From: Eledone cirrhosa
Taxonomy: Eukaryota
Assembly: GCA_964016885.1 (NCBI GenBank)
Contig: OZ024749.1
Location: 43,958,001-44,022,000 of the forward strand
Reading direction: 5' to 3'
Length of the DNA: 64,000 nt
Both the position numbers and the translations under genes were made by a program. The notes under the pieces are model-generated. The model made no database searches. It saw only the letters and a list, made by a program, of their open reading frames with translations, and had not been told where the DNA came from. Shown in pieces: positions 56,668 to 64,000 of this stretch (position 1 is the stretch's first letter; the number at the start of each line of letters is the position of its first letter).

Positions 56668-59600
56668 CTACAACTGAAATAGTTTTATGTATAAAATGGT
56701 TAACACTACAAAAATCCAACTGATTCGGAATGAAGACGCTCCAGCAATTCGGCATTTTAATGTGTCATACCTAAAAAAGAATTAAGCAGAAAAATTATAT
56801 CAGTGAGGACATTTTTCTTATTGTTACAGAGTGACATTAAAGCTTTCTGGGTAATGAATAAATAAAAATATTATAAGGGATGGATCTTATCTTTGAGGGA
56901 AGAGTAGATTGTGTGATGCCTGCATCAGGAGTGCGATGTTTCATGGAAGTGAGACATGGGCAGTAAATGTAGAGGTTAAAGAGAAATGAAGTGAGCATGC
57001 TACGATGGATGTGTGATGTTCATGTATGATGAGGCGTCGATGAACTGATAGAAAAGCTATGTATAAGAATAATCAGATATAGTGCACGAGAGTGAAGACT
57101 GCACTGGCATGGATGATCCCTGGGTAAAGCCAGGAGATAGCTGTGGAATGAAGCTACAATAGAAGAAGTGGTGGCAGTAGTCTTACCTGTTAGCTTCATT
57201 TCTCATCTTTTTGTTGTATTCTTCAACCATTGTCTGACCATTGTAATACCACTGCAGATCATTAAATGGATATTCATAGCCCTGTTTACATTCACACTTG
57301 TAGGAGCCTTCCGTGTATTTCAAATGAGATTGTAAAGGAACACACTGGAAACAGGAGAGAATATGACATCTTAACCAAAGAGAAAAAAAAAAGTCATATT
57401 GCTGGGGGTGCTGCTGCTGCATTCCCCAACAAAAAATTGTTGTCAGAAAATTTTTAAATTTTCCAAAAATATTGTATACTTTGATCATTTATTTTAATTA
57501 AACAAAATATAATAAAATATGTACAATACAATAATGAATAAAGATGTCATAATAATTGTTTCTACTTTTAGCACAAGGCCAGCAATTACCCAATGCATTA
57601 CTGGTACTTTATATTATCGACCCCGTAAGGATGAAAGGCAAAGTTAAATTCGGCGGGATTTGAACTCAGATCATAAAGATGTCATAATAATAATTGGCTA
57701 GCATAAAAATTATGAACATCAGCAATCCCCCAAAATGATACAAGCAATAGGCTTATCATCTTAACCCTTTTGATACCAACCCACATTAAACCACTCCTGG
57801 TTTAATGAAACAACTATTCATAATGTTCAAACTTATATTAAAACCTTCCCTCATAATTTTATAATAAATGGGCAAAGAAGAAGACATATACGTACACACA
57901 CATTTACATATCATATATTATTTTTACAAACACTATATAAAATTAAAGCAGCTTACATAAGTGGTCTCATAGTCACAGCGAGCAGTGCTTTTAAAGGCAT
58001 TGGCTACATAGAAGCTGGCAGGGCATTGATCGAGATCTAAATAATTTATGTCGACATCAACTGTAATAACACCCCTGAAATTGAAAACAAAATGAAACTG
58101 AGGATTATTAAAGGTTGACAAATGAGAACAGAAATACAGAAAAAAGATTAGCTAGAAGCTAGGTGTATAGCTCATGCTCTAGGCATGCACTTAGAATTAG
58201 ATGGACAGCTCATATAACAAATGAATGTCTAGTTCTGGTACTACAATGAAATACACCCAGTACACACTGTAATGTGGTTGGTGTCAGGAAGGGCAACCAA
58301 CCCTAGAAACCATGGCAAAATGGAACATATTAAGTTAGCTGTGGACTCCAACCTATCTAGAAGGACATTATCACTGATTAAATAGTGATCTGGTCTGTAA
58401 TTATCCAGATGTAAAATGATGATGATGATGTCAAACCAATACAAGGATGGAAAAAGGATGTAAAAACAATGGTGATGATGATAATGAAAGTATATAGATA
58501 ACTTACTTAAATTCAATTTGAGTCTTCAATGTATTTGTTCCAAAAAATGGCACAACATAAGTGAGAACCCAAGCATTAACTCGGTCATCACACTTAAACA
58601 CAGGGCGTAACCATTCTCCATCTTCGTATTTCGGTGCATAATATGTGAGAGGGTAATACTCGAATCGTATTAAACTGGACCCATTGATGTCCGACCGCAT
58701 CATTGGACGAGTTATAAATTTCTCCAGTGAATGATAGTTTGTAGCCCAACGAGATTTCATGTCCGTAAACCAACGTTTATCAGTATAACGGTCTTTGAAA
58801 CCAGCAAAATCAATAACTCGGGATCTTGTCTTATCTCCAGTTTTCCAAGCAAATGGACCAAAGTATTCCCGCGTTACTTCATTTACATAACGTGGATCGG
58901 TATTATTTCCAGGCGATATCCGATATTTATATTGATCAAAGAATATACCAGAACCAAGTATCTTGAAGTCACTCATTACAGTAGCTATAACCTCTCCATA
59001 CATTTGTGTATCGTGTAAACGACGATCACCTCTAAGAATACCAAATTCTTCATACTCGTCAACATTTTGAAGAAAATTACTGAGAAAATGGGCAAGTCTT
59101 AGTGCAGATCGCCCTTGAGATTCAAACTGCTTCTCAGCACCATAGCCAGCATCTCCAGGAAGAAGCAGTTGGTTTGCTGTTAGGTGTTTGCAATTATCTT
59201 TTGTTGTTTTCTGTTTACGTTCAATAATTTCTCTCATTCTCATCCACATGACATTGTCAAAGAGATCTCGTTTCTTACGAGAAAGATTGCCTTCTCTGGC
59301 AACAAACCGTCTAGCTGTGCTGGTCTTTAAGGGAATGAAATCTTTTGAAGAGTACTCCATATTTGGCGCAATCCATCTCAAACTCCTGTGAGCAGTAGGA
59401 AATATAATTTTCAGAAACTCATCATGTTTTGAACTAAAAGATGCTAGGGATCGTTTCTTAACGTTTTCAATGATTTCTGGGTTCTTTTTAGGGATCACCT
59501 GGGCAACTAGAGATAAAGAGAAAAAGCAAAATTAGGTGAATTTTATTCGCTCTTATCTAAAACAGAGCCAGAGAGACATACTCACAGAAAGTTAGAAAGG

Positions 59601-61041
59601 AAGAGATGCAGAAAAATAAAGAGAGAGAGAGAGAGGAGAGATAGAGGGACTGAGAGTACATACAAATAATATAAGCAATAAAAAATGTTAAAAAAATACT
59701 GAATTTTCTTACAATCAACTGGGACACAGTCAAAGCCATTCTCATATTCCTCTTTAGTAGAAGCTTCTATTTCTACTCCAAGGAAAGGTCCATCATGCCA
59801 CCAGGGGTATTTGTATAAAGGTTGACATGCACACATGTAACTACCACGTCGAAAACCAAATCCACTCAAAGGTTCACACTGAAAAGAATATTATACATTT
59901 TTAGATTTTACAGGCAAAACCAACTGGGAAGAGACACAGGTGTAGATCCCGAGAGCAAAATAGTTGAATAGCATCCATGAGCACAGCTGCTCTCTCTTGG
60001 AGAACTAATTGGATCAGTTGGAGATGGTTGCTTCTGACAGGACCCACTGGAAGCCGTGTTTGAGGACTCTGCTCCCACAACTCTCTCAGGAATAAGTGAG
60101 CGATGAAAAATAAATATTCTACTGAAACTCAGTAACAACAAAGAGTAATCTCAGTAATATAAATATTTTGACTACCTTGGTATTGAACATTTTTTACTCA
60201 TGTTTGGCAAAAAGCACCCAGTACACACTGTAAATGTGGTTGGCATTAGAAAGAGCATCCAGCCGTAGAAACCAAGTCCAAATCAGTTCTGTCCCCCAAC
60301 CTGATCCCTCATAAAGGGACATTCCGTCCTACCCATGCTAGCGTAGAAGATAGACATTAAACAATGATATAACAACAATGAGGTTTCCAAATGCTAACAT
60401 ATGAACATATGTGTGAGTTTCAACATCATTGTTTAAAGTCTATTTTCTATGCTTGCATGGGTTAGACAGGTTGTCACATTTTGAGGCTACACTAATCAGG
60501 TAATCATGTCATGCTCATGCGCTCCATGTTTGGCTTGGTTTATATGGCTGGATGCCCTTCCTGTAAGGTGGTAGTGTTGGTGTCAGAAAAAATGCACCCT
60601 GCTCACCCTGTCAGATGGTTTGCATCAAGAAGAGCATCCAGCTATAGAAACTATGACAAATATGGACTGTAATAAGCAACATTGGTTGCTCTGACCCATC
60701 TTATCTCAGTAACAATCCATCCAACCCATGCCACCATGGAAAGGGGGGGGGGGGGGCATAAAATAATGATGATGAAAGCAAAACAACCTTTTCTCATCAA
60801 ATCACCTCCCATCTTACAATTAATATGATGATGATGATGATGATGATGATGACCACTATTGCTGTCTGTCCATCTCTCAAAGATTTAAAATAAACCATTC
60901 TTACCAGAGTGGTAGACTTGCATCGTGCTGTGCCAGCAAAATAGTTTGGTGCGGGGTTTCCTTCAGATGTTGGGCACGGATTAAAGTCAATGCGTTCAAA
61001 TTCCAGATCAATACTTGTAACAGCCACAAACCTAAATAAAG

Positions 61042-61154: not shown

Positions 61155-61199
<45 letters not shown>

Positions 61200-61371
61200 A
61201 AAAGAGTCAGGACCTTGACGGCTGAGCTCCAGCCATTTCGACAGCTAGATTCGAAATAGCCGGAGTTCAGCAGTTGGAGTCCTGACTCTTTTCCTATGAC
61301 CCACTCTACTACCCTAAGTATCGAGTACTCTGGTGCGTTATGGTCCACCTGGTATCTTACCACACCTTCTT

Positions 61372-61449
<78 letters not shown>

Positions 61450-61497: not shown

Positions 61498-61535
<38 letters not shown>

Positions 61536-61935
61536 AATATACACGGGTGTGTATGATTGTGTATAGAAAATTATATTAATATAATGAACCTGAAGATTGC
61601 GAAAGCATGAAAGTACTTGTTCAATTAATACTTAACATTTAATATTCTACCATACTATTTCATTCTAATACCATTATACATTTTAAAGGATTGTAAATAA
61701 AACGAGTAAATCAGACAAAGTTGGAATTCCTTTTATTAATATATATATATATATATATAACGAAGGAAATGTGGTAAGGAACCAGGTGGACCATAACGCA
61801 CCAAAGTACTCAATACTTGAGGTAGTAGAGTGGACAATAGGAACCAGTAAGACCCCGACAGCTGAGCTCAAGCCGTTTCGACGGCTAATTCTGTCGAAAC
61901 GGCTTGAGCTCAGCTGTCGGGGTCTTACTGGTTCC

Positions 61936-61967
<32 letters not shown>

Positions 61968-63783
61968 GAAATATATGCTATCGCCGTATTTTGACTAAAG
62001 AAATTATTTAGCCTGATAGTGGGGTTAAGAACCCTCGGAGAAATGGAAAAAGATGATGTGTTGGTGTAATGATAGCACAGTGGTCTGGATAACCGCAGAT
62101 GTGGGTTCGACTCCCATGTACGTCAATACTCATCTTTTTCCATTTCTCCGAGGGTTCTTAACCCCACTATCAGGCTAAATAATTTCTTTAGTCAAAATAC
62201 GGCGATAGCATATATTTCTAATTTCAAACTCGCTCGCTGTTTCGAAAACATTCTTACCTATATATATATACACACAAAAACTCCAACAAACTAATCAAAT
62301 TGAAGCAATTAAATATTGAATTTTTTTAAAATCCAGCGATTCAGCTCTGCGGCGTCTGGGGCGAAAACCACACTATTCGGCAACTAGCTTGAAATCAACA
62401 ATATCCCTACATCTCTTTGCCAGGCACTTAGCATACATTTTACCAGGGAGGCTTAACAAGGAGAGCCCTCTTTAATTGGAGAAAGCTGTCTTGTCTCTCT
62501 TTTTGATAATTGAGATTATCACTCCCGATTGCCATTGCTAAGGAGCCTTTCCAGAGAAGCAGGGTTCCTGGCACACTTAAGTAAGCCAGAAATACTTCCT
62601 CTATTTTAGGCTTTTAACATCTCAGGTCGAAATTCATACTCCCCAGATGCCTTACTACATTTGAGCTCTTTAATTGCTCTTGTGACTTCAACCTCCAAGA
62701 GGACAGTCATCGCTCCCAGTATGAGTCTAATTACCCTTACCGGGTACCAAATAACCATACTTAAGATATAAATATTTAAGTGGATAAAATATATACTTAC
62801 TGAGGTCTTCTTAAATGGGTAGAGTTTGAATAGCGAGGCATAAATTCAACAACAGGAGCTGTTGCACTGACAATCCACTTATTTGTTCGTCCACAATCAA
62901 AGTAAGGATCAGTGAAGACAACAGGAAGATACATTTGTTCTAGACTCCCTGGTTGAGGAGGACCAAAGAAAGACGAAACTTGGAAACCATCAGTGACAAA
63001 TTCACCTGTCTTCTCCGATCTTCGAACACCAACATTATAGGTATACTTCCTAAGAGTGTCCAAGTTATTGTTCAAATCAGGTAACCATTTACTGTACCAA
63101 GGGCTGTGTTTATAGGCTGGATTGCTGTAGTTGTGACTACGGCCTGCTCCATAATCGTGAATGTCAATTGTATTGTTTGTGGGTTCCCGCAACCAATTTG
63201 TGGGTTCGTTGTAGTCATCTACCCGCCAAGCTTTAGGGCCAAAGAGAGGCAGAGTATCGTTCAATCTCATCGTAGTGTACCAATTAGGGTATGAACAGTT
63301 GTTGTCAAAAAACAGTCCACTGCCGTTTATCATACTAATTCCAGCAGACACATCGGCGGCCAGAGAGAAGTAAATATACTCAAACCCTGGTTGTTTTATT
63401 AGGGCTTCGCTCTTGTTAAGTTCCTGATAGATATAACTGAAATAAAATGCCCGGTTAAGAGCCAAGTTGTGAGCGTGCAAAAGACTAGATCTGTTCGTGT
63501 AATAAACGGTAGAGAGGAAAGTATTATAACGAGGTATTTGAGATACAACGCCTTTCAGAAGGTTGGTGTCTAAACGAAGGTCTGTATAATGTTTCGAACG
63601 ACAATTATCTCCTGTTACCGCTGTAAACTTTTCCATTATCTCATCAAAGTTATCCTTAGGAGAAAGTTCAAAAGGTTGAGCGTCAATTAAAGGACCATTC
63701 CAAGAAAGTAAATATGCGAATGTGCAAACAAATATTATAAATATTGTGTTGAGGCCGCCACTATAACTCGGCCTCAGCTCCAT
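56668..63783 (-). CDS. Secreted/GPI-anchored protein with two tandem GPR158/GPR179-like ectodomains (Cache-like + EGF-like), 884 aa, 7 coding exons
   Basis: Exons 62801-63783, 60905-61031, 59713-59878, 58507-59506, 57957-58074, 57187-57344 and 56668-56770; GT-AG, phases consistent, 2655 nt. N-terminal hydrophobic signal. Motifs PYFDC...[15 protein letters not shown]...F..TARC and [18 protein letters not shown] resemble the GPR158 ectodomain and occur twice. C-terminus is [25 protein letters not shown]. Confidence 0.8.
61195..61378 (+). mobile_element. Hairpin+tail element in (TA)n, copy 1
   Basis: Hairpin 61195-61297 plus an ~80-nt tail. Confidence 0.7.
61585..61623 (+). ncRNA. Minimal type-I hammerhead ribozyme motif (Penelope-type)
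   Basis: TGAAC-CTGAAGA-T.TGC.GAAA.GCA.T-GAAA-GTAC-TT-GTTCA: stem I TGAAC/GTTCA, conserved core, GAAA-capped stem II, palindromic stem III AAGTACTT. Confidence 0.7.
61759..61938 (-). mobile_element. Hairpin+tail element in (TA)n, copy 2 (inverted relative to copy 1)
   Basis: Perfect 46-bp arms 61837-61938; tail homologous to 61298-61378. Confidence 0.7.
61963..62258 (+). mobile_element. Perfect 94-bp inverted repeat element with tRNA-like loop and 35-nt tail
   Basis: Arms 61963-62056 and 62130-62223 are exact reverse complements; tail 62224-62258; (TA)n on both sides. Confidence 0.8.
62055..62125 (+). tRNA. tRNA-like cloverleaf (GGA at the anticodon position), probably a pseudo-tRNA or element head
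   Basis: Acceptor GATGTGT/GTACGTC, D GTGT/GCAC, anticodon GTGGT/ACCGC with loop CTGGATA, 4-nt variable loop, T arm GTGGG-TTCGACT-CCCAT, discriminator A, and T5 about 10 nt downstream. Confidence 0.55.
62340..62745 (-). mobile_element. Degenerate LINE RT N-terminal fragment
   Basis: Minus-strand [18 protein letters not shown] matches the pre-RT 'EV..AI..LK..KA.G' motif. Confidence 0.5.
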
Positions 63784-64000
63784 TTTTTTTCTGCTCCTCT
63801 TTCTTATTTTTATGTAGAAAGATTTATCACAAATAACGTTGAATAAACAGTATTTACATAGATGATATATAAAACACCTTCATTAGAACATACCTTCAAC
63901 CACCTGTAGCATATTCAAAATGGCTTCTGATAATTAAAAAAAAAAGGTAATAAAAAAAATTAAAACAATAACAATGTCACCAACCGTCTAACAACAGGTA

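What the first reader, a model, noticed from the sequence alone, without database searches (positions are those of the whole stretch)
61963..62258. Complete tRNA-like cloverleaf held in the loop of a perfect 94-bp palindrome inserted in (TA)n
Seen: two exactly complementary 94-bp arms enclose a 71-nt sequence in which all four tRNA stems pair. It has A/B boxes and a T5 terminator, and a 35-nt asymmetric tail follows the right arm. The tRNA is non-standard (GGA anticodon without the long Ser variable arm, T at position 37, GA instead of GG in the D loop). Known: Penelope-like elements (PLEs) form inverted terminal repeats with a ~30-40-nt tail. Inference: a young non-autonomous element pairing a Pol III tRNA promoter with PLE-type ends, i.e. 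a possible PLE-mobilised SINE-like element. The zero arm mismatches suggest recent insertion.
Basis: partly seen in the sequence, partly recalled or inferred. Interest (0 to 1): 0.8.

Follow-up and report, generated by a model that had tools for sequence, protein, structure and literature searches.

The report
tRNA-carrying Penelope-type mini retroelement
This palindrome is one copy of a short non-coding repeat with over a thousand matches in the genome; the repeat carries a tRNA-like module and has the two-site ends of Penelope-like retrotransposons, so it is likely a SINE-like parasite that would be transcribed from the tRNA module and copied by a Penelope-type enzyme.

Summary
In detail: perfect 94-nt arms, a tRNA-like loop and a 35-nt tail in (TA)n. 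But the palindrome is not the unit. The real unit is a 258-290-nt non-coding monomer (leader, tRNA-like domain, structured 3' part, tail) with at least 1,446 exact tail matches and several subfamilies. Copies show the Penelope-like element (PLE) hallmarks: two 3' ends about 35 nt apart, 5' inversions with variable junctions, partial head-to-tail tandems, and (TA)n targets (212 of 236 ends). A whole tRNA in the loop is incidental (2 of 87 tail-sampled loci). Helices are kept between subfamilies, including one compensatory pair. No hammerhead ribozyme was found. Copy 5' ends pile up at the T-arm base and at the tRNA's 5' edge, which suggests a folded RNA template, part of it starting just before the tRNA. 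Best reading: a non-autonomous PLE whose upstream unit supplies a Pol III promoter. Against this: a T5 run lies right after the tRNA, no RNA data were available, and no autonomous partner was found among 49 GIY-YIG loci. No such element turned up in the paper searches; Repbase and Dfam could not be searched.

The parts
61936..61962 (.). (TA)n target microsatellite, left side
   Evidence: family-wide, 212 of 236 terminal ends abut (TA)n against 1037 of 7500 random positions
61963..62056 (-). Inverted, tail-less copy of unit positions about u130-u223 (PLE-type 5' inversion, starting at the inner 3' site)
   Evidence: (L001: 3' end at -34)
62054..62056 (+). 3-nt overlap at the inversion junction; the direct copy starts at tRNA position -1 (u55)
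   Evidence: a foldback through the unit's own 5'/3' complementarity is inferred
62055..62125 (+). tRNA-like domain (u56-u126): GGA loop, T37, short variable loop; not a decoding tRNA
62062..62073 (+). A-box-like D arm (this copy has a private G>A at 62072)
62105..62113 (+). B-box-like T loop; the T arm is invariant across subfamilies
62129..62145 (+). Trailer strand including T5 (62135-62139); in full units it is predicted to pair with the leader u38-54, which this 5'-truncated copy lacks
62152..62193 (+). Two predicted hairpins (P2 62152-62164, P3 62173-62193)
62199..62240 (+). Helix P4 (62199-62205 with 62234-62240), enclosing the inner 3' end; compensatory C-G/T-A change between subfamilies
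62224..62258 (+). 35-nt tail between the two 3' end sites
62259..62270 (.). (TA)n target microsatellite, right side

Best explanation
The feature is a 5'-truncated, 5'-inverted copy of a 258-290-nt non-coding repeat with PLE-type ends that is likely transcribed by RNA polymerase III from its tRNA-like module and likely inserted into (TA)n by the reverse transcriptase and endonuclease of an autonomous Penelope-like element. SHOWN: the unit anatomy, copy numbers, two fixed 3' ends, tail-less inverted arms, partial and multi-unit tandems, (TA)n flanks, conserved helices and the two pile-ups of 5' ends. INFERRED: (1) Transcription starts at about G52, 4 nt before the tRNA of an upstream unit, so that unit plays the part of the PLE pseudo-LTR promoter. 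(2) A minority of transcripts read through the T5 run into the structured 3' part and the next unit or units. (3) The PLE protein nicks (TA)n and starts cDNA at the two internal sites, at the tail end and about 35 nt inside it. (4) The enzyme often stalls at the folded T arm or runs off at the RNA's 5' end, and the cDNAs are joined or folded back by microhomology. In this copy the cDNA ended at tRNA -1 and the second arm began just 3' of the tRNA, which leaves the tRNA in the loop. The likeliest helper is one of the abundant Neptune-like families, but it was not identified.
For: PLE-type mobilisation. In the tRNA-sampled loci, which were not chosen for their ends, 93 of 118 segment 3' ends fall at one of two sites (hand sum). 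Of 87 tail-sampled loci, 63 have a head-to-head inverted pair, and 50 of those have one tailed and one tail-less end. 212 of 236 ends abut (TA)n. Public contigs also show (TA)n directly behind both sites and head-to-tail joints of 271-272 nt (one sample). These are the features listed for PLEs in PMC8557442, and PMC11167929 ties the tail to two internal RT start sites. A hammerhead-bearing GIY-YIG family in the same genome also ends at two sites about 40 nt apart (L231 against L225 and L236), and the genome gave 10,596 GIY-YIG candidates, 150 of them scored. RNA-level selection. Subfamily-variable positions are 13 of 122 paired against 33 of 136 unpaired (Fisher p = 0.005), while private rates are equal (0.034 and 0.037); 8 of 11 varying pairs keep or gain pairing in every group, against 65 of 196 private changes. 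5' end of the template. In the tail sample 10 starts fall at the tRNA 5' edge against 1.2 expected, and 3 fall in the 50-nt leader against 4.9 expected. Among 40 copies abutting (TA)n, 20 end at u52-57 (8 at G52, 4 of them unambiguous), 20 at u58-70 and none at u41-51 (hand count of the 100 rows listed; 249 rows were unlisted). The D and T arms (A and B boxes) are unchanged between subfamilies apart from one D-loop insertion.
Against: A T5 run 10 nt after the tRNA is conserved in all reference units and should stop most Pol III transcripts (established knowledge), yet about two thirds of segments that reach the tRNA 5' edge run on into the leader and the previous unit (22 of 32). Several insertions span parts of three units with independent divergence (L062, L191, L198), which fits a circular or Pol II multimer template at least as well. 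The stop at u52-55 could instead be a stall at a leader-trailer helix formed between units. The excess at the tRNA 5' edge is weak in the tRNA-sampled set (7 against 2.4, P = 0.012). Three of the 11 varying pairs are broken in subfamily B, two of them in the acceptor stem. The helices were chosen from folds of these same sequences, which biases the stem test. No PLE 3' region among 49 GIY-YIG loci matched the unit (best E 0.17), and no second family shared the tail among the solo 5' flanks. In subfamily B the two 3' sites are about 64 nt apart rather than 30-40.
Confidence: 0.55

Rival explanations
1. Ribozyme-less retrozyme. Multimers come from read-through or Pol II transcription, and host tRNA-processing enzymes (RNase P, perhaps RNase Z or ligases) cut them at the tRNA-like module. 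The module would replace the hammerhead, giving monomers or circles that a PLE copies.
For: No hammerhead core that can fold was found on either strand (one loose regex hit in the subfamily C reference only) and no Rfam ribozyme family matched. Monomer size and tandem habit match non-LTR retrozymes. Three-unit insertions exist, and rare variants are shared by all units and both arms at L087 and L170. The leader-trailer helix would bring the ends of a monomer together. 7 of 40 solo ends are at u55/56.
Against: 12 of 40 solo ends extend 1-3 templated G residues beyond u55 (u52-54), which a cut before G56 cannot give. There is no pile-up at the RNase Z site (6 starts in s71-80). The acceptor stem is imperfect in subfamily B.
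Confidence: 0.17
2. Passenger tRNA. The unit is an ordinary non-autonomous PLE transcribed from host or flanking promoters, and a captured tRNA survives only as part of a folded RNA. Both pile-ups are RT stalls at helices.
For: The strongest pile-up is a stall at the T-arm base (51 starts against 3.4 expected; 22 of 29 solo ends at u117-122 by hand count), so most copies lack the promoter boxes. T5 is explained as part of the leader-trailer helix. This copy lies in an apparent intron.
Against: A passenger that blocks RT this strongly should be lost, yet the D and T arms are the most conserved parts across subfamilies. Ends stop sharply at G52, with none at u41-51.
Confidence: 0.18
3. The mobiliser is not a PLE: for example an ordinary LINE-dependent SINE with twin priming, or a (TA)n-targeting MITE, Helentron or satellite.
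For: No PLE partner sequence was found. One 25-unit array with higher-order similarity behaves like a satellite.
Against: There is no 5' tRNA head, no poly(A) or simple-repeat tail belonging to the element, and no fixed terminal inverted repeats. There are two fixed internal 3' ends, variable 5' ends and tandem units. The array itself has an inverted tail-less 5' part and a tailed end in (TA)n.
Confidence: 0.08
4. Assembly foldback artefact, or a real tRNA-Ser gene.
For: The arms are perfectly complementary; ARAGORN gives a Ser(gga) call.
Against: There are more than 1,000 family matches with the same design. The domain has T37, no long variable arm, C33 in subfamily A3 and a G-A mismatch at 27-43 in five of six groups.
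Confidence: 0.02

Closest known systems
Non-autonomous Penelope-like elements (for example MRC1 and other non-autonomous Chlamys elements; PMC8557442, passages and section 6 read)
   Same: No ORF, pseudo-LTR partial tandems, multicopy head-to-tail insertions, inverted 5' copy, 30-40-nt tail, microsatellite targets.
   Different: Those generally share 3'-end sequence with an autonomous family; none was found here among 49 loci. No tRNA module is mentioned for them (the paper's single 'tRNA' hit concerns selenocysteine).
Metazoan non-LTR retrozymes (PMC7229834, passages; bioRxiv 10.64898/2026.07.22.740005, part 1 of 5 and passages)
   Same: 170-400-nt structured monomers in tandems of up to dozens of units, proposed to be mobilised by PLEs.
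   Different: They are defined by a type I hammerhead in each unit, which is absent here; a tRNA-like module stands in the unit instead. Circular RNA was not tested.
Schistosoma SINE-like hammerhead repeats (SMalpha; the name is recalled; described in the review PMC6765202, passages; the primary paper was not held)
   Same: Apparent Pol III promoter inside a tandem unit, with the upstream unit transcribing the downstream one; single copies are dead ends.
   Different: They carry an active hammerhead. The passages read do not describe PLE tails, 5' inversions or (TA)n targeting for them.
tRNA-derived SINEs, including the octopus tRNA-Core and tRNA-Deu families (PMC8967140, PMC13282606, passages)
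   Same: tRNA-like module with A and B boxes, high copy number, subfamilies, and a class of copies that begin at the tRNA.
   Different: The tRNA lies inside a circularly permuted unit and is followed by T5. The 3' ends are PLE-type two-site ends, not a LINE-derived tail. No Rfam or tool test for CORE or Deu domains was possible.

Membership tests
Non-autonomous PLE | Partial head-to-tail tandems (pseudo-LTR) | tested here: met
   15 of 87 tail-sampled and 35 of 63 tRNA-sampled loci hold more than one unit; head-to-tail joints in public contigs
Non-autonomous PLE | Inverted 5'-truncated copy next to the 5' end | tested here: met
   63 of 87 and 45 of 63 loci
Non-autonomous PLE | 30-40-nt tail at one end only (two RT start sites) | tested here: met
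   3' ends at about 0..+4 and about -35; about 64 nt in subfamily B
Non-autonomous PLE | AT-rich or (TA)n targets without a clear TSD | tested here: met
   212 of 236 against 1037 of 7500
Non-autonomous PLE | 3'-end similarity to an autonomous PLE | tested here: inconclusive
   no match in 49 of the 150 scored GIY-YIG loci (10,596 candidates); 30 of the 49 had only 1.5 kb downstream; Naiad and Hydra families were not sampled on purpose
Non-autonomous PLE | Mobilisation by PLE protein | not testable with these tools
   needs an in vitro or cell assay
Non-LTR retrozyme | Type I hammerhead in each unit | tested here: not met
   strict and U3-A8-relaxed core search on both strands across the junction: none in 6 of 7 references, one loose hit in the C reference that overlaps helix P4; Rfam found no ribozyme
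Non-LTR retrozyme | 170-400-nt tandem monomer | tested here: met
   258-290 nt; 25-unit array
Non-LTR retrozyme | Circular RNA intermediate | not testable with these tools
   no RNA holder listed; indirect hints only
tRNA-derived SINE | tRNA-related region with A and B boxes | tested here: met
   parent tRNA not settled
tRNA-derived SINE | tRNA head at the element's 5' end | tested here: not met
   full units carry 55-79 nt of leader and often an upstream partial unit; only a subset starts at the tRNA
tRNA-derived SINE | LINE-type 3' tail (poly(A) or simple repeat) with TSD | tested here: not met
   two internal fixed ends and (TA)n on both sides; LINE 3' ends were not searched
tRNA-derived SINE | Pol III transcription | not testable with these tools
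   no RNA or ChIP data; indirect support from the 5'-end pile-up, conflict from T5
Functional tRNA-Ser gene | Long variable arm, purine 37, U33, intact stems | tested here: not met

The most novel reading that the evidence does not exclude
A ribozyme-less class of PLE parasites in which one tRNA-like module replaces both the pseudo-LTR promoter and the hammerhead: Pol III makes the RNA, host tRNA-processing enzymes cut and circularise the units, and a PLE rolls them into (TA)n. This would be a SINE class that rides on a telomerase-related reverse transcriptase instead of a LINE.
Probability: 0.15. Interest if true: 0.88.

Novelty: new variant of a known kind. Interest (0 to 1): 0.62.

Why it matters
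SINEs are known as Pol III transcripts that borrow LINE machinery (established knowledge), and PLE mobilisation of short non-coding elements has mostly been argued from shared hammerheads and co-occurrence. Here thousands of short insertions carry the direct PLE footprint (two start sites, tail, inversion) together with a conserved tRNA module and no ribozyme. If Pol III drive is confirmed, this extends SINE-type parasitism to a third class of retroelement. The 260-nt RNA, with mapped start sites and covarying helices, is a minimal natural substrate for asking what a PLE protein recognises and what the hammerhead is for. It also warns annotators that such copies are called as tRNA-Ser genes or as hairpin miRNAs.

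Tried and rejected
Partner search: GIY-YIG family search, 30 loci with 1.5-kb flanks and 19 with 7 kb, compared by blastn with seven unit references; best E 0.17. Solo 5' flanks shared no new upstream family; the two flank pairs found match another interspersed repeat. Expression: no RNA holder listed; this is no evidence either way. Contig depth along the unit rises at the tRNA start, but the tool says depth is no copy number and the leader is the most diverged part, so it is not used as evidence. An m1A58 block as the cause of the main stop was set aside: the ends cluster at u117-122, not at u112 (8 of 239 starts at s56-60). Palindromes alone as the cause were set aside: the P2 hairpin has 3 starts against 6.7 expected. 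Parent tRNA: only 12 host tRNA or tRNA-like sequences were compared (Gln, Trp, Thr, Ile calls and the second family); Gln scored best (59 against a shuffle maximum of 42), the second family's tRNA scored 57, and a Gly(TCC)-like pseudogene shares the D arm by eye. A further pattern search found nothing. Ser and most other isotypes were not compared, so the parent is undetermined. The 25-unit array as master copy was rejected: its units are 15% apart from each other and 84-91% like the C reference. Host gene: no Pfam or PDB match. Earlier scan notes: none. The primary Schistosoma paper was not held. A tRNA-splicing route to circles was considered and dropped as untestable.

Full report
1. Observation. 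The arms (61963-62056 and 62130-62223) are 94 nt and perfectly complementary. The loop scores as a tRNA in ARAGORN (Ser, gga) and Rfam (46.4 bits, gathering score 29). On its own it folds no better than shuffles (z = -0.24). (TA)n lies on both sides. The copy sits between two minus-strand open frames, with a GTAAGT donor near 62800 and a TTTTCAG acceptor near 59878, so it is probably intronic and antisense to an unnamed gene.

2. It is a family. A DNA search of the 3.0-Gb genome gave 1,695 candidates, 40 of them scored. Exact patterns give 1,446 tail matches and 1,017 tRNA-core matches, with 0 in the reversed controls; these are lower bounds. I held 190 element loci: 30 by similarity, 30 plus 60 from the tail list, and 30 plus 40 from the tRNA list. 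I dropped 12 as overlapping duplicates, leaving 178: 28 similarity-, 87 tail- and 63 tRNA-sampled. The pattern-sampled loci all come from the first 281 Mb of contig C1.

3. The unit. The monomer is 258 nt in this copy's subfamily: leader u1-55, tRNA-like u56-126, trailer with T5 at u136-140, a structured 3' part and a tail u224-258 (u = window position minus 61999). Other subfamilies are 260-290 nt. Fifty full units align; I assigned 49 of them by eye to six groups (one, L082, left out), 2-5% from their majorities. The window copy differs from its majority at 4 of 204 sites, one being the D-loop G>A. Its arms are identical, as in 10 of 100 comparable loci.

4. PLE-type ends. 3' ends fall at the tail end or about 35 nt inside it: 93 of 118 segments in the tRNA-sampled set, which was not chosen for its ends (hand sum). 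In subfamily B the outer end has moved 29 nt out with an insertion, so its tail is about 64 nt. Head-to-head inverted pairs occur at 63 of 87 tail-sampled loci, 50 of them with one tailed and one tail-less end, and at 45 of 63 tRNA-sampled loci (25). More than one unit occurs at 15 of 87 and 35 of 63 loci. 212 of 236 terminal ends have (TA)3 within 12 nt, against 1037 of 7500 random positions. Public contigs of one sample show (TA)n behind both sites and head-to-tail joints. PMC8557442 (passages and section 6) lists these features for PLEs and describes non-autonomous ones. PMC11167929 (parts 1-2 of 4) shows that the tail lies between two internal RT start sites and that hammerhead cleavage is not needed in vitro. 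The whole tRNA lies in the loop at only 2 of 87 and 1 of 63 loci, so the palindrome is a by-product. Here the direct copy starts at u55 and the arm at u130, and the two share a 3-nt overlap inside a natural complementarity; foldback of the cDNA is inferred.

5. The RNA is under selection for structure. Folds of natural units show a helix of about 17 bp between leader u38-54 and trailer u130-146 that brackets the tRNA, plus four more helices. Subfamily-variable positions are 13 of 122 paired and 33 of 136 unpaired (p = 0.005), while private rates are equal. Of 11 varying pairs, 8 keep or gain pairing, including one compensatory C-G/T-A change in P4 and several A-to-G changes opposite T, which points to the tRNA-sense strand. 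Three pairs break in subfamily B, two of them in the acceptor stem. The helices were picked from these same sequences and the groups are few, so this is supportive, not decisive. The D and T arms are unchanged but for one D-loop insertion. T37, C33 in one group and a 27-43 mismatch rule out a decoding tRNA. The parent tRNA is not settled.

6. Where copies stop. Among 141 terminal segments of the tail sample, 51 start at u115-124 (3.4 expected) and 10 at u50-59 (1.2 expected); 3 start in the leader (4.9 expected) and 3 at hairpin P2 (6.7 expected). In the tRNA sample the 5'-edge excess is weaker (7 against 2.4). For copies that abut (TA)n directly, counted by hand from the 100 rows each call listed: 22 of 29 loci end at u117-122 (2,180 rows unlisted), and of 40 loci 20 end at u52-57, 20 at u58-70 and none at u41-51 (249 rows unlisted; sensitivity falls towards u41). 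Eight end at G52, four of them unambiguously. I read the first pile-up as an RT stall at a folded T arm and the second as a true RNA 5' end: a G after a pyrimidine, 11 nt before the A box, as expected of Pol III (established knowledge). A stall at an inter-unit helix is not excluded.

7. Against the Pol III reading. T5 is in all seven reference units and should terminate most transcripts. 22 of 32 segments pass the tRNA 5' edge. L062, L191 and L198 span parts of three independently diverged units, and L087 and L170 share a rare variant across all units and both arms, which suits a circle or a homogeneous array. One array has 25 units, 15% apart, with PLE-type ends. No RNA run was listed.

8. 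No ribozyme, no partner found. Hammerhead core searches were negative in six of seven references, with one loose hit in C, and Rfam found no ribozyme. The genome is rich in GIY-YIG elements of Neptune-like layout (the clade name is from domain order and recall), and they end in (TA)n. None of 49 sampled loci shares sequence with the unit.

9. Comparison. It works like a cross between a non-autonomous PLE and the Schistosoma Pol III tandem repeats (review PMC6765202, passages). It meets the structural tests for a non-autonomous PLE. It fails the hammerhead test for retrozymes (PMC7229834 passages; bioRxiv 10.64898/2026.07.22.740005 part 1 and passages; PMC4209133 passages) and the head and tail tests for a classical SINE. 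Ten full-text searches listed no paper whose listing or read passages describe a tRNA-containing PLE-mobilised element. Passages of two cephalopod repeat surveys do not either, but one counts hundreds of unclassified SINE families whose library I did not open. Subscription journals, Repbase and Dfam were not searchable, so an unnamed library entry may exist.

10. Verdict. The feature is real and is a member of an abundant, recently active family. PLE-type mobilisation is about 0.9 likely; Pol III drive as the role of the tRNA module is about 0.55. It is a new variant of a known kind; interest 0.62.

Noticed in passing
window 61760-61938: A second hairpin-with-tail insertion (46-nt perfect arms, about 77-nt one-sided extension) in the same (TA)n; an older copy lies at about 61195-61375. 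It belongs to another abundant family, not linked to any sampled PLE ORF.
   Followed up: partly
window 61520-61745: 3' fragment of a Neptune-like family with a hammerhead core near 61590; it matches the 3' regions of L120, L225, L226, L231, L234 and L236.
   Followed up: partly
L183 + L221 (G000:C1 about 131,459,300-131,465,820): Array of 25 full units of this element, 15% mean divergence, with higher-order similarity at lags 3 and 5 and PLE-type ends.
   Followed up: yes
L247, L249-L257: A second, unrelated dispersed family carries a complete tRNA-like gene with a drifting anticodon, about 330 nt from a fixed left end that has a short hairpin, often after TA. No tail or inversion was seen. 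It may be a Helentron-like DNA element (recalled, untested).
   Followed up: partly
L228, L229, L230, L237, L238 3' regions: Several Neptune-like families carry hammerhead-like cores with the U3-A8 variant and a CCGG palindrome, read by eye; the variant is described in PMC4209133.
   Followed up: no
Subfamily B loci (for example L074, L076, L191): A 29-nt insertion moves the outer 3' end while the inner end stays, so the tail is about 64 nt. The two RT start sites seem set by sequence or structure, not by a fixed distance.
   Followed up: partly
L246, L248, L266-L280 and G000:C4 about 277.4 and 353.4 Mb: Host tRNA-Thr, tRNA-Gln and tRNA-Trp genes lie in long tandem clusters.
   Followed up: no
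window 62797-63879, 59582-59890, 58503-59531, 57183-57488 (minus strand): Large open frames of an unnamed gene with two similar long exons and cysteine-rich exons; no Pfam or PDB match for those tested.
   Followed up: partly
window about 6000-14000: Very low-GC stretch (4-15% GC) with extreme GC skew, probably simple repeats.
   Followed up: no
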